64,000 nt of DNA from Chloroflexota bacterium (GTDB lineage: Bacteria; Chloroflexota; Chloroflexia; Thermomicrobiales; UBA6265), in NCBI GenBank assembly GCA_023423795.1, contig JAFAEX010000098.1, forward strand, positions 14,620 through 78,619, written 5' to 3'. Under the pieces are notes generated by a model, which saw only the letters and a list, made by a program, of their open reading frames with translations, searched no databases and had not been told where the DNA came from. Position 1 is the first letter of the stretch, and each line of letters starts with the position of its first letter. Shown here piece by piece: positions 1-56,988 of the stretch. The translations under genes were made by a program, and so were the position numbers.

Positions 1-590
1 TTGAGCCGGTCGATGGCGTATTCACCAGCGGCGAACGCTTCGGCGCGGTGCGGGGAGGCGATGCAGATGACGACGCTGGCTTCCCCGACCGGGAGGAAGC
101 CGGTGCGGTGCACGATGGCAACGTGCTCGATGCCCCAGCGCTCGCGGATCTCGTCGCCGATTTTCGCCATCATCTTCTCGGCGGCTTCGGGGTAGGCCTC
201 GTAATCGAGGCCGACGACGCCCTTGCCGCGGGCGTTGTCGCGGACGCGGCCGACGAAGGTGAGCAGCGCGCCGCTGCCGGGGTCATCGACGAGGGCCTCG
301 ACGGCGCGCGGGTCGAGGGGCTCTTGCAGCACGCGGAAGCGGCCGTCGCCGCCGCTGACCGGCGGGATGAGCGCGAGTTCGTCGCCGTGCCCGAGGACGT
401 GGTCTTCGCGGGTGTATTCCTGGTTCACCATGAGCATGACGCGGCCGCGCATCGGCGCGAGCCGGGGTTCGTCGGCCTGGAGGGCGTCGAGGACCGCGCC
501 GACGGTTGCGCCGTCGGGCACGTCGCGCGCCTCTTTCGAGCGACCGAGCAGTTCGCGCACGGCGGCGAAATACCGGAGATTCACCCGCAT
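1..590 (-). CDS. Fused MoaD-MoaE molybdopterin synthase (MoaX-like); 3' end lies beyond the window
   Basis: Absent from the ORF track because there is no stop inside the window. Hand translation from ATG 590-588 gives MRVNLRYFAAVRELLG...ELALIPPVSGG, an 81-aa MoaD-type beta-grasp ending GG. It continues in frame into DGRFRVLQEPLD...GALLTFVGRVRDNARG...YEAYPEAAEKMM...RWGIEHVAIVHRTGFLPVGEASVVICIASPHRAEAF, which follows the MoaE pattern. Confidence 0.85.
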   Translation of the reverse strand, partial: MRVNLRYFAAVRELLGRSKEARDVPDGATVGAVLDALQADEPRLAPMRGRVMLMVNQEYTREDHVLGHGDELALIPPVSGGDGRFRVLQEPLDPRAVEALVDDPGSGALLTFVGRVRDNARGKGVVGLDYEAYPEAAEKMMAKIGDEIRERWGIEHVAIVHRTGFLPVGEASVVICIASPHRAEAFAAGEYAIDRL

Positions 591-14527: not shown

Positions 14528-14682
14528 CCCGGTCGATTGGAGCAGGAACGGACTGGCGCGGTTCGACCGCGCCGACGTCCTTGCGTTGGCTGTCCGGCCG
14601 CAGAGGGCAGCCCGGCACGAAGTCCGGGCGCAGGCGCCGCGATCCCACGTCGTACCGAGAAATCAGGCTGGTCACGCTCCCC

Positions 14683-14762
14683 GTCATCCCGAGCCTGTCG
14701 AGGGATCTCGTCGTTGCCGTAAATCGGAGGAGGACGAGATCCCTCGACAGGCTCGAGGTGAC
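14683..14762. repeat. REP-type palindromic hairpin (family GTCATCCCGAGCNTGTCGAGGGATCTCGTC)
   Basis: Left arm 14683-14712 and right arm 14733-14762 (GACGAGATCCCTCGACAGGCTCGAGGTGAC) with a 20-nt loop. It sits in an intergenic gap between convergent genes. Confidence 0.9.
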
Positions 14763-14804
14763 GATTGGGGCAGTGACGATTCGCCCGGTTTGGAACGAGG
14801 CGGA

Positions 14805-17997: not shown

Positions 17998-18090
17998 CCT
18001 GTTGCCGCACGAATCGCGAGCGGGCGGTACAGGCGGTTCGCACGTTCCGATGCATTGCGGTGACGGGTGCACCGTCACGGCCTCGCACCC

Positions 18091-18170
18091 GTCATCCCGA
18101 GCGTGTCGAGGGATCTCGTCGTCTCAGCAATTCGGGAAAGGACGCAATCCCTCGACACGCTCGGGATGAC
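18091..18170. repeat. REP-type palindromic hairpin (same family)
   Basis: Arms GTCATCCCGAGCGTGTCGAGGGATCTCGTC (18091-18120) and GACGCAATCCCTCGACACGCTCGGGATGAC (18141-18170) with a 20-nt loop. Confidence 0.9.
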
Positions 18171-18209
18171 AGAGGTAGCGGCTCGGAGTGGCGTTAGACG
18201 CGGCTCGGC

Positions 18210-21720: not shown

Positions 21721-21815
21721 ACCCATCGTCATCCCGAGCTTGTCGAGGGATCTCGTCGTCACCGTAGCGTGGGAGGGGGACGAGATCCCTCGACAAGCTC
21801 GGGATGACGATGGGT
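21721..21815. repeat. REP-type palindromic hairpin (same family, longest arms)
   Basis: 37-nt arms ACCCATCGTCATCCCGAGCTTGTCGAGGGATCTCGTC (21721-21757) and the exact complement at 21779-21815. Confidence 0.92.
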
Positions 21816-28931: not shown

Positions 28932-29948
28932 CTACCTCGGCGAGCCCTTCCGGCGGGTCATCTCGAACGTCGCCTCCGGATCGTCCGCCGAGGCGTGGCC
29001 GGCGACGATGACGAGGTATCGAAGCAGGAAGCCGCCGGCCAGCGTGAGCAGCGTGGCCAGGACCGAGATGGGCCGGGCGTGGCGAGGAAACGATGCGGCG
29101 GCCGCGTTCAGGACGAGCGGAGCGGCGAGGCCCGCGCCGGCGACGCCGTGCCGGATCGTTTTGCCATGCCGTCCCTCGTGCAGCGGTTTTCCGCTGCGGC
29201 GGAGTCCCGTCAGCCAGGCCAGCAGGAGAGCCGCTTCGGCTACCCCGGCGATCTGCTCGAAGCGGGCGAGCCGGCCGTCGTGGCGGCGACTGGTAGCGCT
29301 CCTGACGAGGGCAACGGCGGCAGTCGCCGTCGAGAGGGCGGACGCGAGGAACAGCGGACCGAGGAGGACCGACCGACGCGCCCAGAGCGGCACCGCGGTC
29401 GCGCCGAGCAGGACGCCCGTATAGCCCGCGAGCAGCAGCCCGAGGCCGCCAGCGGCAACGTCGAGCAGGCGCGACGGCAGCAACCGGGTGACAGGCCGCA
29501 CGGCGGGCGGCAGGAGGCCGTCGGCGTCGGCCTGGAGCGCGACGGTGGCGGTCGCCGCGCCGCCGAACAGCACGAGACACCAGGTGCCGATGGACATTGG
29601 CGAGCGCAGTTTGAATACCCGCAGCATGTTGAGGAACCGCTCGGGCCGTCCGAGGTCGAGGATGAGCAGGGGAGGGCAGGCGAGGAACGCCGCGAACGAG
29701 ACGTAGCGGGCGGTCCGCACGACCGGTTTCGCTTTCCGGCCGCCGACCAGCGAGGCGACCACCGCGATCGCCTGCGCGCCGCCGGAGATACCTCCCAGGA
29801 AGAAGTAGACGATGACCAGCCACTTCCAGTGGGCGCGGTGGATGACGGGCACGCCGGCGTAGGAGCGCGGCCCCGAACGCTCTCGTTTCCTCCGCCGGCC
29901 GTCTCCGGGCTGCGGATCGGGCTGACCGCGCTCGCCGGATGCGTTCAC
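28932..29948 (-). CDS. NrfD/PsrC-type polytopic membrane subunit of the FDH complex
   Basis: Trimmed to GTG 29948, which forms a GTGA overlap with the upstream stop. Sequence WKWLVIVYFFLGGISGGAQAI..., with about 8 predicted TM helices by eye. Confidence 0.8.
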   Translation of the reverse strand: MNASGERGQPDPQPGDGRRRKRERSGPRSYAGVPVIHRAHWKWLVIVYFFLGGISGGAQAIAVVASLVGGRKAKPVVRTARYVSFAAFLACPPLLILDLGRPERFLNMLRVFKLRSPMSIGTWCLVLFGGAATATVALQADADGLLPPAVRPVTRLLPSRLLDVAAGGLGLLLAGYTGVLLGATAVPLWARRSVLLGPLFLASALSTATAAVALVRSATSRRHDGRLARFEQIAGVAEAALLLAWLTGLRRSGKPLHEGRHGKTIRHGVAGAGLAAPLVLNAAAASFPRHARPISVLATLLTLAGGFLLRYLVIVAGHASADDPEATFEMTRRKGSPR

Positions 29949-30772
29949 GATCGCTCCCGGAAGGCGAGGGCGGCGGCGAGCACGAACCCGGCGGCGGCGG
30001 CGAAGGTGGCGGCAAAGGCGGGAGCAGCCCGGCGCTGCGGCAGTTCCGGCGCGGCCGGGAGGTGGAAGGTCTCGGGTTCGTCGGTGAGGACGAACAGCGC
30101 GTTCAGGCCGCCGATATCGCCCGTCCCGCCGGAGAGGTTGTCCCCATAGAGTTGGGCCTTGTCGATGCCGCGGGCGCGCAGGGTTTCTACGCGCTGGCGG
30201 CCGTCTTCGAGCAACTCGGCGACCGGGCCGAAGCGGATCGAATCGGTCGGGCAGGCCTTGGCGCAGGCGGGTTCGAGACCGCCCCGGAGCCGGTCGTAGC
30301 AAAGGGTGCACTTGTGCGCGCGGCCGTCGTCGTGGCCGAGTTGCGGTACGCCGAAGGGGCAGGCTGGCACGCAATAGCCGCAGCCGTTGCAGACATCCTG
30401 CTGGATGTAGACGGTGTCGAACTCGGTGCGGATGATCGCGCCGGTCGGGCAGGCTTCCATGCAGCCGGCGTGGACGCAGTGCTTGCAGACGTCGGAGAGC
30501 ATCAGCCAGGCGACCATCGGCGGGCCGACCGCGACCTCGGCGGAGCGTTCGACGAAGGCGACGTGCCGCCAGGTGGTCGCGCCGAGGTCGAGCGTGTTGT
30601 CGTAGGACACGCCGGACAACCCGGGCTCGGGCAACTCGTCGGCGGGCAGCCCGTTCCATTGCTTGCAGGCGACTTCGCAGGCCTTGCAGCCGATGCAGAG
30701 GCTGGAGTCGGTCAGGAAGCCGACGGCGTGCTCGCGGAACTGGGGCTGCGCGCCGTTCACCAACTCAGGCAT
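29945..30772 (-). CDS. 4Fe-4S ferredoxin-type iron-sulfur subunit (FdnH/DmsB-like) with C-terminal TM anchor
   Basis: Four Cys clusters: CIGCKACEVAC, CKHCVHAGCMEAC, CNGCGYCVPAC and CTLCYDR...C..AC. The hydrophobic tail is AAPAFAATFAAAAGFVLAAALAF. Confidence 0.88.
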   Translation of the reverse strand: MPELVNGAQPQFREHAVGFLTDSSLCIGCKACEVACKQWNGLPADELPEPGLSGVSYDNTLDLGATTWRHVAFVERSAEVAVGPPMVAWLMLSDVCKHCVHAGCMEACPTGAIIRTEFDTVYIQQDVCNGCGYCVPACPFGVPQLGHDDGRAHKCTLCYDRLRGGLEPACAKACPTDSIRFGPVAELLEDGRQRVETLRARGIDKAQLYGDNLSGGTGDIGGLNALFVLTDEPETFHLPAAPELPQRRAAPAFAATFAAAAGFVLAAALAFRERS

Positions 30773-33700
30773 CTGGCGCTCCGGGCGGCGGGTCGGCGCG
30801 GCGCACGGCGCAGGCGAACGACTTGGCCTCGTGGATCAACGAGTTGGGGTCCTCGACGAGCGCGCTCAGGTCGTTGGCGATCGCGCCGGTGGCGATGCCG
30901 CCATAGCCGAAATGCCACGGCATGCCGACTTGATGAACAGTGCGGCCGCCGACGGCGAGCGGGGAGAGGCGTTCCGTCACCAGCGCGCGGGTTTGGATCG
31001 CTCCGCGCGCCGTGGCGATCTCCACCCAGCCACCGTTCTCGACGCCGATGGACGCGGCGAGCGCGGGGTCGATCTCGGCGAACCCCTGCGGCTGCAACTC
31101 GGCGAGCCACGGCACGAAGCGGGTCATGCCGCCGGCCGTGTGGTGCTCGGTGAGGCGGTAGGTCGTCAGGACATGCGGGAAGGCCGGGTCACCGACCGGC
31201 TGATAGGGATTCTCCGGGTGATGCAGCGTGCGCGCGGCCGGGTTGCGCGGCTGCCCGGGGTAGATCGCGTTGGCGACCGGGGATTCCCACGGCTCGTAAT
31301 GGGCCGGCAGCGGGCCATCGCGGAGGGCGCTCGCGGCGTAAAGTTGGCCGCGTCCGTCGGCCAGCATCAGGAACGGGGCATCGCCGGCGTGGGCCGCCAT
31401 GCCTGCCGCGCCCGGTTCGGGGCGGTAATCCGGGTGCCTGTCGTAGGGGAAGTCGGGCACGTCCTCGCCAACCCAGCGGCCCGCGTCCTCGTCCCACCAT
31501 ACCCACGCCTTGCGTTCCGACCACGGGTTGCCGTCCGGCCGGGCGGCGGCGCGGTTGTAGAGGATGCGCCGGTTCGCCGGCCAGGCGTAGCCCCAGCCCA
31601 GGGCGGCGCGCCCGTGCGGATCGCGTTCGCGGGCGCGGTTGCGCCCCGGTTCGGGCATGATGCCGGAGTAGATCCAGCAGCCGCACGCGGTCGATCCGTC
31701 GGCGCGCAGTTCCCCGTAGCCGACCACGGGCCAACGGTCGGCAACGCGGTAGCCGTTGATCTCGGCGACCACGACCTCGAGGTCCGGTTCGCCCTGTTCG
31801 TCGGCCGGGTAGTCCCAGGCGAGCGCCCGGAACTGCCGCGCCTGCGGGGTGTCTTCGCCCTCGTAGAGCGCGGCGAGGCGGCGCCAGAGGTCGTGGATGA
31901 ACCACGCTTCGGACCGGGAAGCGCCTGGCGGCGGCACAGCGCGGTCGTGCCACTGCACGAGGCGCTGGGTGTTGGTGAAGGAGCCGTCCTTTTCGGCCGA
32001 GAGGGCGGCGGGCATCAGGAAGACTTCGGTGGCGATCGCCTCCGGGTCCAGCGAGCCGTCAGCGACTTCCGGCGAGTCCTTCCAGAACGAGGCGGATTCG
32101 ATCTCGAACGGGTCGCGAACCACGAGCCAGTCGAGGTCGGCCAGCGCCCGCCGCGCCAACCCGGCGTTCTGGCCGCCGACCGCCGGGTTCTGGCCCATGC
32201 AGAAGAGGCCGCGTAGGGTGCTGTCGCGCATCATCAGGGTCATGTTCTGGAACGAATAGTCGCCGGCGATGCGCGGCATCCAGCCGTACCCGAAGTCGTT
32301 CTCCGGCTGGGCGTTGTCGCCGTAGAACGCCTTGAGCAGGCTGACGACGTAGTCCGGCGCGTGGGACCACCAGCCGGTCGGCGTCGTTACGTCGTCGATG
32401 TAGTCGGCTAGCGTCTCGTGCGGCCGATTCGCGGAGGGCATCGGCAGGTAGCCCGGCAGCAGATTGAAGAGCGTCGGGATGTCGGTGCTGCCCTGAATCG
32501 TGGCATGGCCGCGCAGGGCCATGATGCCGCCGCCGGGCCGCCCGATGTTGCCGAGCAGCAGTTGCAGGATCGCGCAGCAGGCGATCATTTGCGTGCCGGT
32601 GGTGTGCTGGGTCCAGGCGACGGAGTAGCAGAACGAGGTCGTGCGCTCCGGCGTCGAGTTGCGGCAGATCGCGTCGGCAACGGCGAGGAACTTCTCGGCC
32701 GGGACGCCGCAGACCTCGGCCACCATCTCCGGCGTGTAGCGGGCGAAGTGGCGGCGCAGCACCTGGAATACGCAGTTTGGGTGGGTGAGGGTCCGGTCTT
32801 CGTGAGTCGTCGCCTGCCCCGCGCGCGCGTCGTAACCCTCGGCGTCGGTGGCTTCGTCGTGCTCGTGGATGCCGTCGCCGGACGTTGCGCCGGCGAACGC
32901 CCAACTCTCGGTGTCGTAGGTTCCATCCTCCGGTCGGTAGCCGGAGAAGAGGCCGCCGAGGTCTTCGGTGTCGCGGAAGGCGTCGCCGACGATGGTGCAG
33001 GCATTGGTGAAGTGGCGGACGTATTCCTCGTTGTACTTCCGTTCCTCGATAGCGTAACGGATCAGGCCGCCGAGGAATGCGATGTCGCTGCCGGCCCGCA
33101 GCGGGACGTGCTGGTCGGCCAGCGCCGAGGTCCGGGTGTAGCGCGGATCGACGTGGATCACGGTCGCGCCGCGCTCGCGGGCCTGCACGACGAAGCGGAA
33201 CCCGACCGGATGGTTCTCGGCCATGTTGGCGCCCATGATGACGACGCAGTCACTCTCGGCGAGGTTCTGCAGGAACGTCGTCGCGCCGCCCCGTCCCAGC
33301 CTGGCGCCCAGACCGGGCACCGTGGAGGAGTGTCATATCCGGGCCTGGTTCTCGATGGCGACGATGCCGAGGCCGGCGGAGAAGAGTTTCTTGATCAGGT
33401 AGTTCTCTTCGTTGTCGAGCGTCGCGCCGCCGAGGTGGCCGATCGCCAGCGTCCGGTTGGCCGGGCGGCCCTCGTCGTCGCGTTCGGTCCAGGTATCGTC
33501 GCGGGTCTGCTTGACGAGGTGGGCAATCCGGTCCATCGCCCAGTCGAGGGACCGCGTTTCCCATTGCATGGCGAAGGGAGGCCGGTAGTGAACCTCGGTG
33601 ACGCGTAGCGGGCTCGAGATCAACCCGCGGGTGGCGGCGCCCTTCGGGCAGAGCGTACCGGCGTTGATCGGGCTGTCCGGATTGCCCTCGATGTCGATGA

Positions 33701-33878
33701 TCTCGCCGTTGCGGTGGTAGACGAGCTGCGAGCACCCGACGGCGCAGTACGGGCAGACGCTGGTGGTGACTTCCACCCCGATTTCCGAAATGCGCGGCGC
33801 GATGGCAGCCGTCTTCGCGCTGGGCGGGTTGGGCAGCATCCCTACGTGGCGGCGCAGCAACTTGAGGGGAGTGGGCAT
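30765..33878 (-). CDS. fdhA: Selenocysteine-containing formate dehydrogenase alpha subunit (Mo/W-bisPGD); TGA at 33333-33335 read as Sec
   Basis: Track ORFs 33333-33878 and 30765-33320 are in the same frame and separated only by TGA. Context: IENQARI-U-HSSTVPGLGARLGRGG matches the FDH active-site pattern (ARV-U-HGP(T/S)VA). N-terminal Fe-S motif CPYCAVGCS. A SECIS-like hairpin follows the TGA. Confidence 0.88.
33304..33320 (-). promoter_or_regulatory. SECIS-like hairpin downstream of the in-frame UGA
   Basis: mRNA GUGCCC-GGUCU-GGGCGC, a 6-bp stem with one G-U pair. The GGUCU loop begins 18 nt after UGA, the same loop sequence and spacing as I recall for the E. coli fdhF SECIS (GGUUGCAGGUCUGCACC). 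Confidence 0.7.
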
Positions 33879-42566: not shown

Positions 42567-42701
42567 GCGTCGTCGCAGGGGAGGGACCCGTGCCCTTCCT
42601 CGTTCTCTACCCGTCCTCTTCGAAACCGGCGCGGAGTTGGCTATCCCGCATCGGCATGTTCCCGTCGAGGGAGGGCACGGGTCCCTCCCCTGCGACGACG
42701 C
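42567..42701. repeat. Long inverted repeat of a second family (36-nt arms, 63-nt spacer)
   Basis: GCGTCGTCGCAGGGGAGGGACCCGTGCCCTTCCTCG (42567-42602) against the complement of 42666-42701, with one mismatch. It lies in an intergenic gap between obg and plsC. Confidence 0.85.
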
Positions 42702-55260: not shown

Positions 55261-55677
55261 TCAGGCGACCTCGATGGGCCGCTCCCGGATGGCGCCATCG
55301 ACGATCGAAAATCCCCGGATGACGGGCTGCTCCGGATCTTCGAGCGAGCAGATCAGGTAGCAGGCGTCCGGCCAAGCGGCGAGCGCCACGTCGGTCGCCG
55401 AGGGAAAGGCCACGCTGTGCGGGTGGGAGTGGTAGATCGCGACGATCTCCCAGTTCCGGCTGGGCAGCGTGCGGAACTCGAGTTCCATCAACTCGGCGGC
55501 GTCGGTTTCGTACAACTCGGTGCCCGGCGCGCGGTTCGTCAGCGGGAACGCCTCCTCGGCCGTGCCGTCCGGACCGGCGAGGACGCCGCAGCATTCCCGC
55601 GGCGCTTCGGCGCGGGCGTGGGCGACGATCGCTGACGCGAGGGTGCTGGAAAGCGCGAACGGCGGCGCGTCGCTCAC
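55261..55677 (-). CDS. mec: JAMM/MPN+ (Mov34) zinc metalloprotease, Mec+-like
   Basis: Trimmed to GTG 55677, which forms a GTGA overlap with the cysO stop. The JAMM motif is exact: E...HSHPHSVAFPSATD (HxHx7Sx2D). Confidence 0.85.
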   Translation of the reverse strand: MSDAPPFALSSTLASAIVAHARAEAPRECCGVLAGPDGTAEEAFPLTNRAPGTELYETDAAELMELEFRTLPSRNWEIVAIYHSHPHSVAFPSATDVALAAWPDACYLICSLEDPEQPVIRGFSIVDGAIRERPIEVA

Positions 55678-55970
55678 GCGCCGCCTCCGGCCATCGCCGG
55701 GATGATGCCGATCTCGTCGCCGGCCTTGACCGGGGTCGCGATACCGTCGGCATCGCGGACGTTGACGCCGTTGACGAAGACGTTGACGAAGCGGCGGATC
55801 TCGCCGCCATCGTCGCGGACCTGCGCGCCTAGGCCGGGGTGGGCCGCTTCGAGCGCGTCGAGCACCGCGCCGACGGTCGCGCCGGACGCGCCGATGCGGG
55901 CCGCGCCGCCGGTGAAGCGGCGCAGCGGGGTAGGGATCAACACCTGGACGTCGCTGGTTCCGTCGCTCAT
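55674..55970 (-). CDS. cysO: ThiS/MoaD-family sulfur carrier protein (CysO-like) ending GGGA
   Basis: Trimmed to ATG 55970. 98-aa protein with a beta-grasp pattern: VQVLIPTPLRRFTGG...VNVFVNG...VKAGDEIGIIPAMAGGGA*. Confidence 0.8.
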   Translation of the reverse strand: MSDGTSDVQVLIPTPLRRFTGGAARIGASGATVGAVLDALEAAHPGLGAQVRDDGGEIRRFVNVFVNGVNVRDADGIATPVKAGDEIGIIPAMAGGGA

Positions 55971-55992
55971 CGCGCAATCGCTCCCGATGCGT

Positions 55993-56988
55993 TCAGGACG
56001 ATGCCGGCGCTCCGGCATCCCACAATCCGGTCGAAAGGTACCGCGCCCCGCCGTCGCAGCCGATGACGACGATGTCGGCGGGTTCGCCGCGCGCGGCGAG
56101 ATCATGCCCGAGGCTGACGGCGGCCGCGAGGTTGGCGCCGGACGAACTGCCGACGAACAACCCCTCGACGCGGGCGAGGCGGCGGGCGGCGTCAAAGGCG
56201 TCCTCGGTCTCGATGCCGAGGATTTCGTCGGGCAGCGTGGGGTCCCAGATGCCGGGCACGATCGCGGTCGGCAGGTGCTTCAGACCCTCGATACCGTGGA
56301 AGGCGGAGGCCGGCTGCACGCCGATGATCCGCGCGCGGCTCCGTTCGCGCAGAAACCGGCCGACACCGGTGAGGGTGCCGGTCGTGCCGAGGGCGGCGAT
56401 GAAGTGGGTCAGGCTGCCGCCGGTTTGCCGCCAGATTTCCGGGCCGGTGGAGGAGACGTGGGCGGCGACGTTGGCCGGGTTGTTGTACTGGTCGGCGAAG
56501 AACGACCCGGTCGGATCGGCGGCGACCATCTCGCGCACGAGCCGGATCGCGCCGTCGGAGCCCTCGTAGGGGTCGCTGTAGATCACGTTCGCACCGTAGG
56601 CGACGAGGATGCGCTTGCGCTCCTCGGAGGCGGAGCCGGGAACGACGAGATTGACGGGTATGCCGAGGGCGGCGCCGAGCATGGCGTAGGCGATGCCGGT
56701 GTTGCCGGAGGTCGAATCGATCAGCGCCTGCCCCTGCCCGAGTTTCCCGGCGGCGATGGCGTGCCGCACGATGGAGAGGGCGGTGCGGTCCTTGATGGAA
56801 CCGCCGGGGTTGGCCCATTCGCCCTTGATCCGGATGCGGATGGTGTCGGGCAAGCCCGCAGCGGCGCGGAAGCGGGCGAGGTCGAGCAACGGGGTTTCGC
56901 CGATGGCGCGCACGGCGGCCACGTCGTCGAGCGACGGCAGCGGGACCGGACCGTGCTCAACATCCCGATGCTGGAGGGTGGCGGACAT
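55993..56988 (-). CDS. cysM: Cysteine synthase B-type PLP enzyme (CysM, CysO-thiocarboxylate dependent type by context)
   Basis: Trimmed to ATG 56988, with GAGGGAG upstream. Motifs: NPGGSIKDR (PLP Lys), STSGNTGIAYA and GTTGTLTGVGRFL. Confidence 0.85.
   Translation of the reverse strand: MSATLQHRDVEHGPVPLPSLDDVAAVRAIGETPLLDLARFRAAAGLPDTIRIRIKGEWANPGGSIKDRTALSIVRHAIAAGKLGQGQALIDSTSGNTGIAYAMLGAALGIPVNLVVPGSASEERKRILVAYGANVIYSDPYEGSDGAIRLVREMVAADPTGSFFADQYNNPANVAAHVSSTGPEIWRQTGGSLTHFIAALGTTGTLTGVGRFLRERSRARIIGVQPASAFHGIEGLKHLPTAIVPGIWDPTLPDEILGIETEDAFDAARRLARVEGLFVGSSSGANLAAAVSLGHDLAARGEPADIVVIGCDGGARYLSTGLWDAGAPASS

What the first reader, a model, noticed from the sequence alone, without database searches (positions are those of the whole stretch)
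33304..33335. In-frame UGA with an fdhF-like SECIS: one selenoprotein gene shown as two ORFs
ORFs 33333-33878 and 30765-33320 share a frame across TGA 33333-33335. The read-through peptide ...IENQARI-U-HSSTVPGLGARLGRGG aligns with the FDH active site. Starting 12 nt after UGA, the mRNA can form GUGCCC-GGUCU-GGGCGC. Its GGUCU loop starts 18 nt after UGA, matching the loop sequence and spacing of the E. coli fdhF SECIS as I recall it. This implies selABCD elsewhere in the genome, and automatic annotation would likely call a pseudogene or two genes.
Basis: partly seen in the sequence, partly recalled or inferred. Interest (0 to 1): 0.55.

Follow-up and report, generated by a model that had tools for sequence, protein, structure and literature searches.

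The report
Selenocysteine formate dehydrogenase gene, split by annotation
The two adjacent reading frames are one ordinary formate dehydrogenase gene whose internal UGA most likely encodes selenocysteine with the help of a conserved RNA hairpin; this is the commonest bacterial selenoprotein, so the call is correct but not new.

Summary
On the minus strand, ORFs 33878-33333 and 33320-30765 are one 1037-codon gene interrupted only by TGA at 33335-33333. The read-through protein passes NCBIfam's curated cut-offs for formate dehydrogenase alpha. The TGA aligns exactly with the selenocysteine of solved FDH structures.

Eighteen nt after the UGA lies a GGUCU loop on a 7-bp stem. Loop and spacing match the real E. 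coli fdhF SECIS.

The same TGA occurs in 78 of 80 related genomes from many phyla and in 75 of 80 metagenome relatives. In 152 unique TGA genes, two synonymous third-codon positions covary as base pairs (151/152). The loop U is kept in 151/152, against 1/7 in Cys orthologues.

Caveats:
- The Rfam SECIS_3 hit is below threshold, and a Cys orthologue scores about as well.
- The window's own sequence has a more stable alternative fold.
- No selA/B/D or tRNA-Sec lies in about 84 kb of the scaffold, so the machinery is inferred. Twelve relatives have sel genes beside the fdh operon (ten with tRNA-Sec).

It is a known kind with low novelty, an annotation artefact of gene callers that ignore selenocysteine.

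The parts
30765..33878 (-). fdhA: a single 1037-codon formate dehydrogenase alpha (catalytic Mo/W-bis-PGD) gene, read through the internal UGA
   Evidence: One frame is open except for one TGA. NCBIfam NF041513 scores 1483 bits (cut-off 1400) and TIGR01553 scores 960 (cut-off 814). Pfam finds Molybdop_Fe4S4, Molybdopterin and Molydop_binding. GC3 is 0.89-0.90 in both halves.
33333..33335 (-). In-frame UGA, the predicted selenocysteine codon (residue 182)
   Evidence: It aligns with the Sec (X) of D. vulgaris FdhA 6sdr and with Cys in the U-to-C variant 9qm0. The same codon is TGA in 78/80 GTDB relatives and 75/80 metagenome relatives. Cys (TGC) orthologues also exist.
33303..33321 (-). SECIS upper hairpin: 5' arm 33321-33315 (GGUGCCC), loop 33314-33310 (GGUCU), 3' arm 33309-33303 (GGGCGCC)
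   Evidence: The hairpin energy is -14.5 kcal/mol. Loop and spacing equal E. coli fdhF. 94% of cells are paired across 79 species, and no shuffle in 500 reached the observed covariation. RNAalifold predicts the same hairpin independently. In 152 unique TGA genes the Val-3rd/Gly-3rd pair reads CG 70, GC 64, UA 7, AU 5, GU 3, UG 2, with 1 mismatch.
33277..33338 (-). Full extent of the sub-threshold Rfam SECIS_3 match (UGA, possible lower stem and upper hairpin)
   Evidence: 39 bits against a gathering score of 63; E = 1.2e-7 in the local search and 2.6e-5 in the whole-window search. It is not discriminating, because Cys orthologue L088 scores 33 bits.
33318..33320 (-). GTG (Val187) that gene callers misuse as the start of the 851-aa fragment; it lies in the 5' arm of the hairpin
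   Evidence: The upstream sequence is CUCCUCCACG with no Shine-Dalgarno-like GGAG, unlike fdhA, fdhB and four of the neighbouring genes checked. The same false start V/M-PGLG appears in most of the printed homologue fragments.
29945..30772 (-). fdhB: 4Fe-4S electron-transfer subunit with a C-terminal transmembrane helix; overlaps the end of fdhA
   Evidence: TIGR01582 FDH-beta, E = 3e-57, 193.8 bits, below its 334.7-bit curated cut-off. Pfam Fer4_11. Sequence.
28932..29948 (-). NrfD-family integral membrane subunit (presumed quinone-reactive anchor), third gene of the operon
   Evidence: The GC3 frame plot assigns the coding frame. Pfam NrfD/NrfD_2 on the called 338-aa gene. Cys-type orthologues show the same three-gene order.

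Best explanation
Window 33878-30765 (minus strand) is one gene for the catalytic alpha subunit of a membrane-associated formate dehydrogenase. It heads an fdhA-fdhB-nrfD-like operon.

Codon 182 is UGA. During translation it is most likely decoded as selenocysteine, the residue that ligates the Mo/W centre. Decoding is directed by a bacterial SECIS hairpin in the coding sequence just downstream: a 7-bp stem with a GGUCU loop, the loop starting 18 nt after the UGA.

By analogy with E. coli fdhF, SelB-GTP-Sec-tRNA(Sec) would bind the loop (G23, U24) and deliver Sec to the ribosomal A site in competition with release factor 2.

Shown here: the gene structure, the family membership, the position of the UGA at the catalytic residue, and evolutionary conservation of the RNA hairpin beyond what the protein sequence requires.

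Inferred: SelB binding, actual Se incorporation, and the presence of selA, selB, selC and selD elsewhere in this genome.
For: **Gene and family**
- The frame is open apart from one TGA, and the protein is full length.
- It scores above curated cut-offs for NF041513 (1483 against 1400) and TIGR01553 (960 against 814).
- The TGA aligns with the Sec of solved Sec-FDH structures, within a near-identical motif QARI-U-HS-TVP.

**Conservation of the codon**
- TGA is at the same codon in 78/80 species-representative genomes. These span Chloroflexota, Actinomycetota, Acidobacteriota, Myxococcota, Planctomycetota, Alphaproteobacteria and Dormibacterota.
- It is also there in 75/80 metagenome loci.

**The hairpin**
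- Loop sequence and spacing are identical to the real E. coli fdhF SECIS.
- It satisfies all four constraints of the published bacterial SECIS model (PMC13188914).
- In 152 unique TGA genes, pair 21-33 (third bases of the Val and Gly codons) is complementary in 151, with four Watson-Crick combinations. Pair 24-30 is complementary in 152/152. The loop U, a synonymous third base, is kept in 151/152. In Cys orthologues encoding the same VPGLG it is kept in 1/7.

**Genome context**
- TGA is the ordinary stop of 21 of 30 genes in the window, so the recoding is site-specific and not a variant genetic code.
- There is no SD-like motif before the downstream GTG.
- In 12 relatives, selD, mostly with selA and selB, lies within 10 kb of the fdh operon; tRNA-Sec was found in 10 of them.
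Against: - No selA, selB, selD or tRNA-Sec lies in the 64-kb window or in the 10 kb fetched on each side of it, about 84 kb of the 109-kb scaffold. The machinery is therefore unverified for this organism.
- The Rfam SECIS_3 match is below the gathering score (39 against 63). A Cys orthologue scores similarly (33 bits). That hit mostly reflects coding homology.
- For the window's own 66 nt, the predicted minimum-energy fold is a different, longer helix (-28.1 kcal/mol). In it the GGUCU bases are paired. The SECIS hairpin has negligible equilibrium probability in isolation. This alternative is not conserved: the SECIS hairpin dominates in 59 of 79 relatives.
- There is no experimental evidence of Se incorporation.
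Confidence: 0.92

Rival explanations
1. Relic or pseudogene. The organism has lost the Sec machinery, the UGA now terminates translation, and the gene is an inactive remnant.
For: No sel genes or tRNA-Sec lie in about 84 kb of the scaffold. The window's own sequence has a more stable alternative fold that buries the loop. fdhA pseudogenes next to a retained SECIS are reported in some mycobacteria (bioRxiv 10.64898/2026.03.03.709296).
Against: Both halves are fully open and keep the same strong GC3 coding signal of 0.89-0.90. Every SECIS consensus feature is intact. The downstream fdhB and nrfD-like genes are intact. The Chloroflexota relatives (L004-L011, L035) also lack linked sel genes yet keep TGA and the hairpin, so absence nearby is uninformative.
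Confidence: 0.05
2. A genuinely split enzyme. The UGA is a true stop, and the Fe4S4 domain (181 aa) and the Mo-binding body (851 aa) are made as two polypeptides, the second starting at GTG 33320.
For: Gene callers report two genes. A GTG lies 12 nt after the stop.
Against: The split would delete the metal-ligating residue and the following His-Ser-Ser-Thr of the active site. There is no SD-like motif before the GTG. The GTG is simply the conserved Val codon of VPGLG and is also present in unsplit Cys orthologues. Synonymous-site covariation points to an RNA structure, not a translation start.
Confidence: 0.02
3. The UGA is read through by something other than Sec-tRNA(Sec), for example near-cognate Trp or Cys insertion or a reassigned code. 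This would give a non-selenium enzyme.
For: None is direct. It cannot be excluded from sequence alone.
Against: TGA is the commonest ordinary stop codon in the window, 21 of 30 genes. A SelB-type hairpin with the fdhF loop is conserved specifically in the UGA-bearing genes. Twelve relatives carry sel genes next to the operon, ten of them with tRNA-Sec.
Confidence: 0.01

Closest known systems
E. coli FdhF (formate dehydrogenase H) UGA140 and its SECIS
   Same: In-frame UGA at the metal-ligating residue, followed by His. The hairpin lies in the coding sequence. GGUCU is at nt 22-26 from the U of UGA and GGU at nt 15-17. The presumed SelB-dependent mechanism is the same.
   Different: The protein is a distant homologue: E = 6e-28 over the N-terminal 294 aa. 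FdhF is a 715-aa soluble subunit of formate hydrogenlyase. In fdhF U17 is bulged, as I recall from the literature; here U17 pairs (U-G in the window, U-A in most relatives).
E. coli FdnG / FdoG (FDH-N/O alpha; TIGR01553; Rfam SECIS_3)
   Same: A Sec-containing alpha subunit of about 1015 aa of a membrane-bound, quinone-reducing FDH. It is followed by a 4Fe-4S beta subunit with a C-terminal TM helix. The window protein scores above the TIGR01553 cut-off. A SECIS_3-like element is present.
   Different: The third subunit here is an NrfD-family protein, not the cytochrome b FdnI. No clear twin-arginine signal is visible. The SECIS_3 score is below Rfam's threshold.
Actinobacterial-type formate dehydrogenase (NCBIfam NF041513, formate_DH_Act), such as mycobacterial FdhA and the Rhodococcus equi FDH-alpha/beta/NrfD cluster
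   Same: This is the best-scoring family, at 1483 bits against a cut-off of 1400. The operon has the same alpha-beta-NrfD order (PMC13332983). In mycobacteria fdhA is the sole selenoprotein and carries a SECIS_3-type element (bioRxiv 10.64898/2026.03.03.709296).
   Different: The window appears to come from Chloroflexota (Thermomicrobiales-like): its closest relatives are at 64-73% identity. The sel genes are not linked to the operon here.
Desulfovibrio vulgaris FdhAB and D. gigas FDH (PDB 6sdr, 1h0h)
   Same: These are the closest solved structures, E about 1e-78. The active-site motif QARI-U-HS-TVP is near-identical.
   Different: Those are soluble periplasmic W/Sec enzymes with a Tat signal and no membrane subunit.

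Membership tests
Formate dehydrogenase alpha subunit (NCBIfam NF041513 / TIGR01553) | Whole-protein HMM score above the curated cut-off | tested here: met
   NF041513 scores 1483.1 bits against a cut-off of 1400. TIGR01553 scores 960.4 against 814.2.
Formate dehydrogenase alpha subunit (NCBIfam NF041513 / TIGR01553) | N-terminal Fe4S4 Cys motif plus the molybdopterin-oxidoreductase and dinucleotide-binding domains | tested here: met
   PF04879 at residues 36-86 (CPYCAVGC...C), PF00384, and PF01568 at residues 903-1020.
Formate dehydrogenase alpha subunit (NCBIfam NF041513 / TIGR01553) | Sec or Cys metal ligand followed by His, at the position seen in solved FDH structures | tested here: met
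   The UGA aligns with X (Sec) of 6sdr and with C of the 9qm0 variant, and His follows.
Formate dehydrogenase alpha subunit (NCBIfam NF041513 / TIGR01553) | Formate-oxidising activity with bound Mo or W | not testable with these tools
   This needs biochemistry.
Bacterial SECIS element (bSECIS consensus model, PMC13188914 Fig. 2) | Apical loop of 3-9 nt on an upper stem of 4-16 bp, immediately downstream of an in-frame UGA | tested here: met
   A 5-nt loop GGUCU on a 7-bp stem at 33321-33303.
Bacterial SECIS element (bSECIS consensus model, PMC13188914 Fig. 2) | G in the first two loop positions, followed by G or U | tested here: met
   The loop is GGUCU. The second G is invariant and the U is kept in 151/152 relatives.
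Bacterial SECIS element (bSECIS consensus model, PMC13188914 Fig. 2) | 16-37 nt between the UGA and the apical loop | tested here: met
   The spacing is 18 nt, identical to E. coli fdhF.
Bacterial SECIS element (bSECIS consensus model, PMC13188914 Fig. 2) | Free energy of -7.5 kcal/mol or lower | tested here: met
   The hairpin is -14.5 kcal/mol. However, the global MFE of the 66-nt stretch is a different fold at -28.1.
Bacterial SECIS element (bSECIS consensus model, PMC13188914 Fig. 2) | Structure conserved by compensatory changes that the protein sequence does not explain | tested here: met
   Covariation exceeds all 500 shuffles and all slid registers. At synonymous sites the pair types are CG, GC, UA and AU, paired in 151/152.
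Bacterial SECIS element (bSECIS consensus model, PMC13188914 Fig. 2) | Binding by SelB and UGA read-through that depends on the hairpin | not testable with these tools
   This needs EMSA or reporter assays.
Rfam RF01989 SECIS_3 | Covariance-model score at or above the gathering threshold (63 bits) | tested here: not met
   The score is 39 bits. The model also gives 33 bits to a Cys orthologue and only 23-33 bits to three bona fide TGA relatives. It is poorly tuned to this clade.
Sec-decoding trait in the host genome (selA, selB, selC, selD) | Presence of selA, selB, selD and tRNA-Sec in the same genome | tested here: inconclusive
   None is found in the window plus 10-kb flanks. Twelve relatives carry sel genes next to fdh, ten of them with tRNA-Sec.

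The most novel reading that the evidence does not exclude
Most novel reading not excluded: this very widespread Sec-FDH clade is an uncharacterised respiratory architecture. It spans Chloroflexota, Actinomycetota, Acidobacteriota and other phyla. Its alpha subunit mostly lacks a recognisable twin-arginine signal, and it is coupled to an NrfD-type rather than a cytochrome-b membrane subunit. The topology (catalytic site facing the cytoplasm, or export by a non-canonical signal) and the energy coupling would then differ from E. coli FDH-N. The selenocysteine feature itself would remain conventional.
Probability: 0.2. Interest if true: 0.3.

Novelty: already known. Interest (0 to 1): 0.1.

Why it matters
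Practically, this is an annotation correction. The 181-aa and 851-aa gene calls on this scaffold should be merged into one Sec-containing fdhA. So should the many equivalent database fragments of about 850 aa, which mostly start at V/M-PGLG.

The merged gene also marks the host, probably a Thermomicrobiales-like Chloroflexota bacterium, as a likely selenium user able to oxidise formate through a membrane-bound enzyme.

It does not change what is known about selenocysteine decoding. FdhA is already recognised as the most widespread bacterial selenoprotein, and its SECIS as the prototype.

Tried and rejected
- **Rfam at gathering thresholds.** Nothing was found in the window. At relaxed thresholds SECIS_3 appears at 39 bits. 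I rejected it as independent evidence, because a Cys orthologue (L088) scores 33 bits and three true TGA relatives score only 23-33.
- **Single-sequence folding.** It was not informative. The z-score was -1.7, and the MFE is an alternative fold.
- **Search for sel genes.**
  - ARAGORN found no tRNA in the window or the flanks.
  - tblastn with E. coli SelA, SelB and SelD found nothing in the window or in L001, L093 and L094.
  - NCBIfam scans of 20 neighbouring or size-compatible ORFs gave only housekeeping genes.
  - The Pfam lists for the two 10-kb flanks show no SelA, SelB or AIRS domains.
  - I could not reach the remaining 25 kb of the scaffold or the rest of the bin.
- **Variant genetic code.** Rejected, because TGA ends 21 of 30 genes.
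- **Larger Cys control set.** A Cys-type query against JGI metagenomes returned mostly TGA genes again (75/80). The Cys control stayed small: 11 sequences, 7 of them with VPGLG.
- **Literature on Thermomicrobia.** The search for selenoproteins specifically in Thermomicrobia gave nothing direct.
- **Locus L018.** It showed no recognisable active-site motif and was left out.
Full report
**Observation**

On the minus strand the stretch 33460-33200 reads ...AUCGAGAACCAGGCCCGGAUA UGA CAC UCC UCC ACG GUG CCC GGU CUG GGC GCC AGG.... The ORF list shows 33333..33878 (181 aa, ATG) and 30765..33320 (851 aa, GTG) on the same strand. Translating 33878-30765 in one frame gives 1037 codons with a single internal stop, in the context IENQARI*HSSTVPGLGARLGRGG.

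The hairpin GUGCCC/GGUCU/GGGCGC starts 12 nt after the UGA, and the loop starts 18 nt after it. With one further G-C pair it is a 7-bp stem of -14.5 kcal/mol.

**What the gene is**

- With Cys in place of the stop, the read-through protein scores 1483 bits against NCBIfam NF041513 (formate_DH_Act, cut-off 1400). It scores 960 bits against TIGR01553 (FDH-N alpha, cut-off 814).
- It has the Fe4S4, molybdopterin and dinucleotide-binding Pfam domains.
- Against solved structures, the best matches are the Sec-containing FdhA of D. vulgaris (E about 1e-78), D. gigas FDH and E. coli FdnG. The window's stop codon aligns with the X (Sec) of IEHQARIXHSPTVP, and with Cys in the engineered U-to-C variant.
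- Downstream lie a 4Fe-4S beta subunit (30772-29945) and an NrfD-family membrane protein (29948-28932), overlapping head to tail.
- Upstream are unrelated housekeeping genes: mutY, coaE, an ABC-F protein, lysA, a sigma-70 factor and obg.

**Source**

The window is part of ENA scaffold LEMO22-1_SAMN17062628_METAG-scaffold_85 (109,416 bp). The public gene calls there split the gene into the same 181-aa and 851-aa pieces. The closest genome relatives are Thermomicrobiales and Sphaerobacteraceae MAGs, Thermomicrobium and Nitrolancea, at 64-73% identity. G+C is 69.6%.

**Is the UGA conserved?**

- Among the 120 best database homologues, 83 are fragments of about 820-900 aa covering about 80% of the query. 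The 28 whose N-termini were printed start at V/M-PGLGARLGRGG or slightly downstream. This is the same artefactual start just after the stop. The 37 full-length homologues (53-59% identity) carry Cys in 36 cases.
- In DNA from 80 species-representative genomes, 78 have TGA at exactly this codon, one has TGC, and one could not be placed. They span Chloroflexota, Actinomycetota, Acidobacteriota, Myxococcota, Planctomycetota, Alphaproteobacteria and Dormibacterota.
- A second set of 80 JGI metagenome loci was fetched with a Cys-type query. It was again 75/80 TGA.

**Is the hairpin a real SECIS?**

*Comparison with E. coli.* The real K-12 fdhF sequence is GUC UGA CAC GGC CCA UCG GUU GCA GGU CUG CAC. 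It shares with the window the GGUCU at nt 22-26 counted from the U of UGA, and GGU at nt 15-17. fdnG has AGUCU at the same place.

*The published consensus model.* The element meets all four constraints of the bacterial SECIS model (PMC13188914):
- loop of 3-9 nt;
- stem of 4-16 bp;
- G in the first two loop positions, followed by G or U;
- spacing of 16-37 nt, and energy of -7.5 kcal/mol or lower.

*Comparative evidence.* This is the strongest line.
- In a gap-free alignment of 79 TGA genes, 94% of cells in the 7-bp helix are paired. No shuffle in 500 reaches the observed covariation. All slid registers collapse to 30-56% paired.
- RNAalifold independently predicts the same hairpin.
- The key pair joins the third base of the Val codon to the third base of the second Gly codon. 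Both sites are synonymous. In 152 unique TGA genes it reads CG 70, GC 64, UA 7, AU 5, GU 3, UG 2, with 1 mismatch.
- The Pro-3rd/Leu-3rd pair is complementary in 152/152.
- The loop U, the third base of a Gly or Ser codon in GC-rich genomes, is kept in 151/152.
- In Cys orthologues encoding the same VPGLG, that base is U in only 1 of 7. The loops there read GGCCU, GGGCU, GGACU, GGGUU and so on. The mean hairpin energy falls from -12.7 to -7.5 kcal/mol.

**Caveats**

- That hit is not discriminating. A TGC orthologue scores 33 bits, and three genuine TGA relatives score 23-33 bits. It largely reflects coding homology to proteobacterial fdnG.
- The window's own 66-nt stretch prefers a different, longer fold in silico (-28.1 kcal/mol) that pairs the GGUCU bases. 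The alternative is not conserved: the SECIS hairpin dominates in 59 of 79 relatives. Even so, thermodynamics alone would not have identified the element here.

**Sec machinery**

- No tRNA of any kind is in the window, and there is no Rfam tRNA-Sec.
- tblastn with E. coli SelA, SelB and SelD finds nothing in the window or its immediate flanks.
- Pfam lists for 10 kb beyond each end of the window show no sel genes.
- The same tblastn queries find selD, mostly with selA and selB, within 10 kb of the fdh operon in 12 relatives. ARAGORN finds tRNA-Sec(UCA) in 10 of them. This ties the FDH clade to Sec decoding.
- None of the Chloroflexota relatives has linked sel genes either. Absence near the operon therefore says little.
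- TGA is the normal stop of 21 of 30 genes in the window, which excludes a reassigned code.
- The GTG used as the false start has no SD-like motif, whereas fdhA, fdhB and four of the neighbouring genes checked do.

**Comparison with what is known**

FdhA is the most widespread bacterial selenoprotein. It accounted for 103 of 285 selenoproteins in the 2006 survey, which already included Chloroflexi and Actinobacteria (PMC1794560; also PMC13188914). Mycobacterial fdhA with a SECIS_3-type element has been catalogued (bioRxiv 10.64898/2026.03.03.709296). The alpha-beta-NrfD gene cluster has been described in Rhodococcus equi, with an ambiguous Tat signal (PMC13332983).

The window's gene passes the curated family model. 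It is an ordinary member of a known kind.

**Verdict**

The existence of the sel genes in this genome remains inferred. Novelty is nil beyond correcting a split annotation, and interest is low.

The only mildly open question is the topology and coupling of this apparently Tat-less, NrfD-linked FDH clade.

Noticed in passing
window 14680-14765, 18088-18173, 21725-21811: There are three copies of a palindromic intergenic repeat of about 85 nt. The core is CGTCATCCCGAGCnTGTCGAGGGATCTCGTCGTC...GACGAGATCCCTCGACAnGCTCGGGATGACG. They give spurious sub-threshold hits to miRNA-precursor and sRNA models on both strands (mir-61, AaHKsRNA41, MIR8622). They look like a REP- or MITE-like hairpin family.
   Followed up: partly
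window 42570-42698: Another long hairpin-like intergenic element gives a sub-threshold mir-8791 hit. Its sequence is unrelated to the three-copy repeat.
   Followed up: no
window 33878-33744 (FdhA N-terminus); loci L004-L083: FdhA here, and in most of the 79 relatives, has no recognisable twin-arginine signal. The window reads MPTPLKLLRRHVGMLPNPPSAK... and many relatives share a W-P-V-x-R-Q motif instead. Only about four relatives (L030, L036, L056, L057) show a classical RRxFLK signal. FdhB has no N-terminal signal but does have a C-terminal TM helix. The membrane topology of this NrfD-linked FDH clade is unclear (compare PMC13332983).
   Followed up: partly
L085 about 2343-2408 (JGI Ga0435668_0018470): This Cys-type (TGC) orthologue still carries a 6-bp hairpin with a GGUCU loop at the SECIS position. 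It may be a fossil SECIS left by a recent Sec-to-Cys conversion.
   Followed up: no
L017, L038, L042, L047, L052, L059, L060, L062, L066, L072, L078, L083: In 12 relatives (Solirubrobacterales, Actinoplanes, Micromonospora, Georgenia, Pseudonocardia, Nocardioides, Sphingomonas, Dormibacterota), selD, mostly with selA and selB, lies within 10 kb of the fdh operon. tRNA-Sec was found in 10 of the 12; L078 and L083 were not scanned for tRNAs. In the Chloroflexota relatives and in the window the sel genes are unlinked.
   Followed up: yes
window 55261-56988 (-): A cysM-like PLP enzyme (55993-56988), a ThiS-like sulfur-carrier gene (55674-55970) and a Prok-JAB/Mec-like peptidase (55261-55677) sit together next to uvrC. 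The arrangement resembles the CysO-Mec-CysM cysteine biosynthesis cluster.
   Followed up: no
window 1-590 (-): A ThiS/MoaD-MoaE fusion gene (molybdopterin synthase) runs off the left end of the window. It is relevant to cofactor supply for the FDH but is not linked to it.
   Followed up: no
public protein collection (one search hits P0001-P0120): 83 of the 120 best homologues are C-terminal fragments of about 820-900 aa. The 28 with printed N-termini mostly begin at the same false V/M-PGLG start. Sec-FdhA genes of this clade are therefore systematically split in metagenome annotations.
   Followed up: yes
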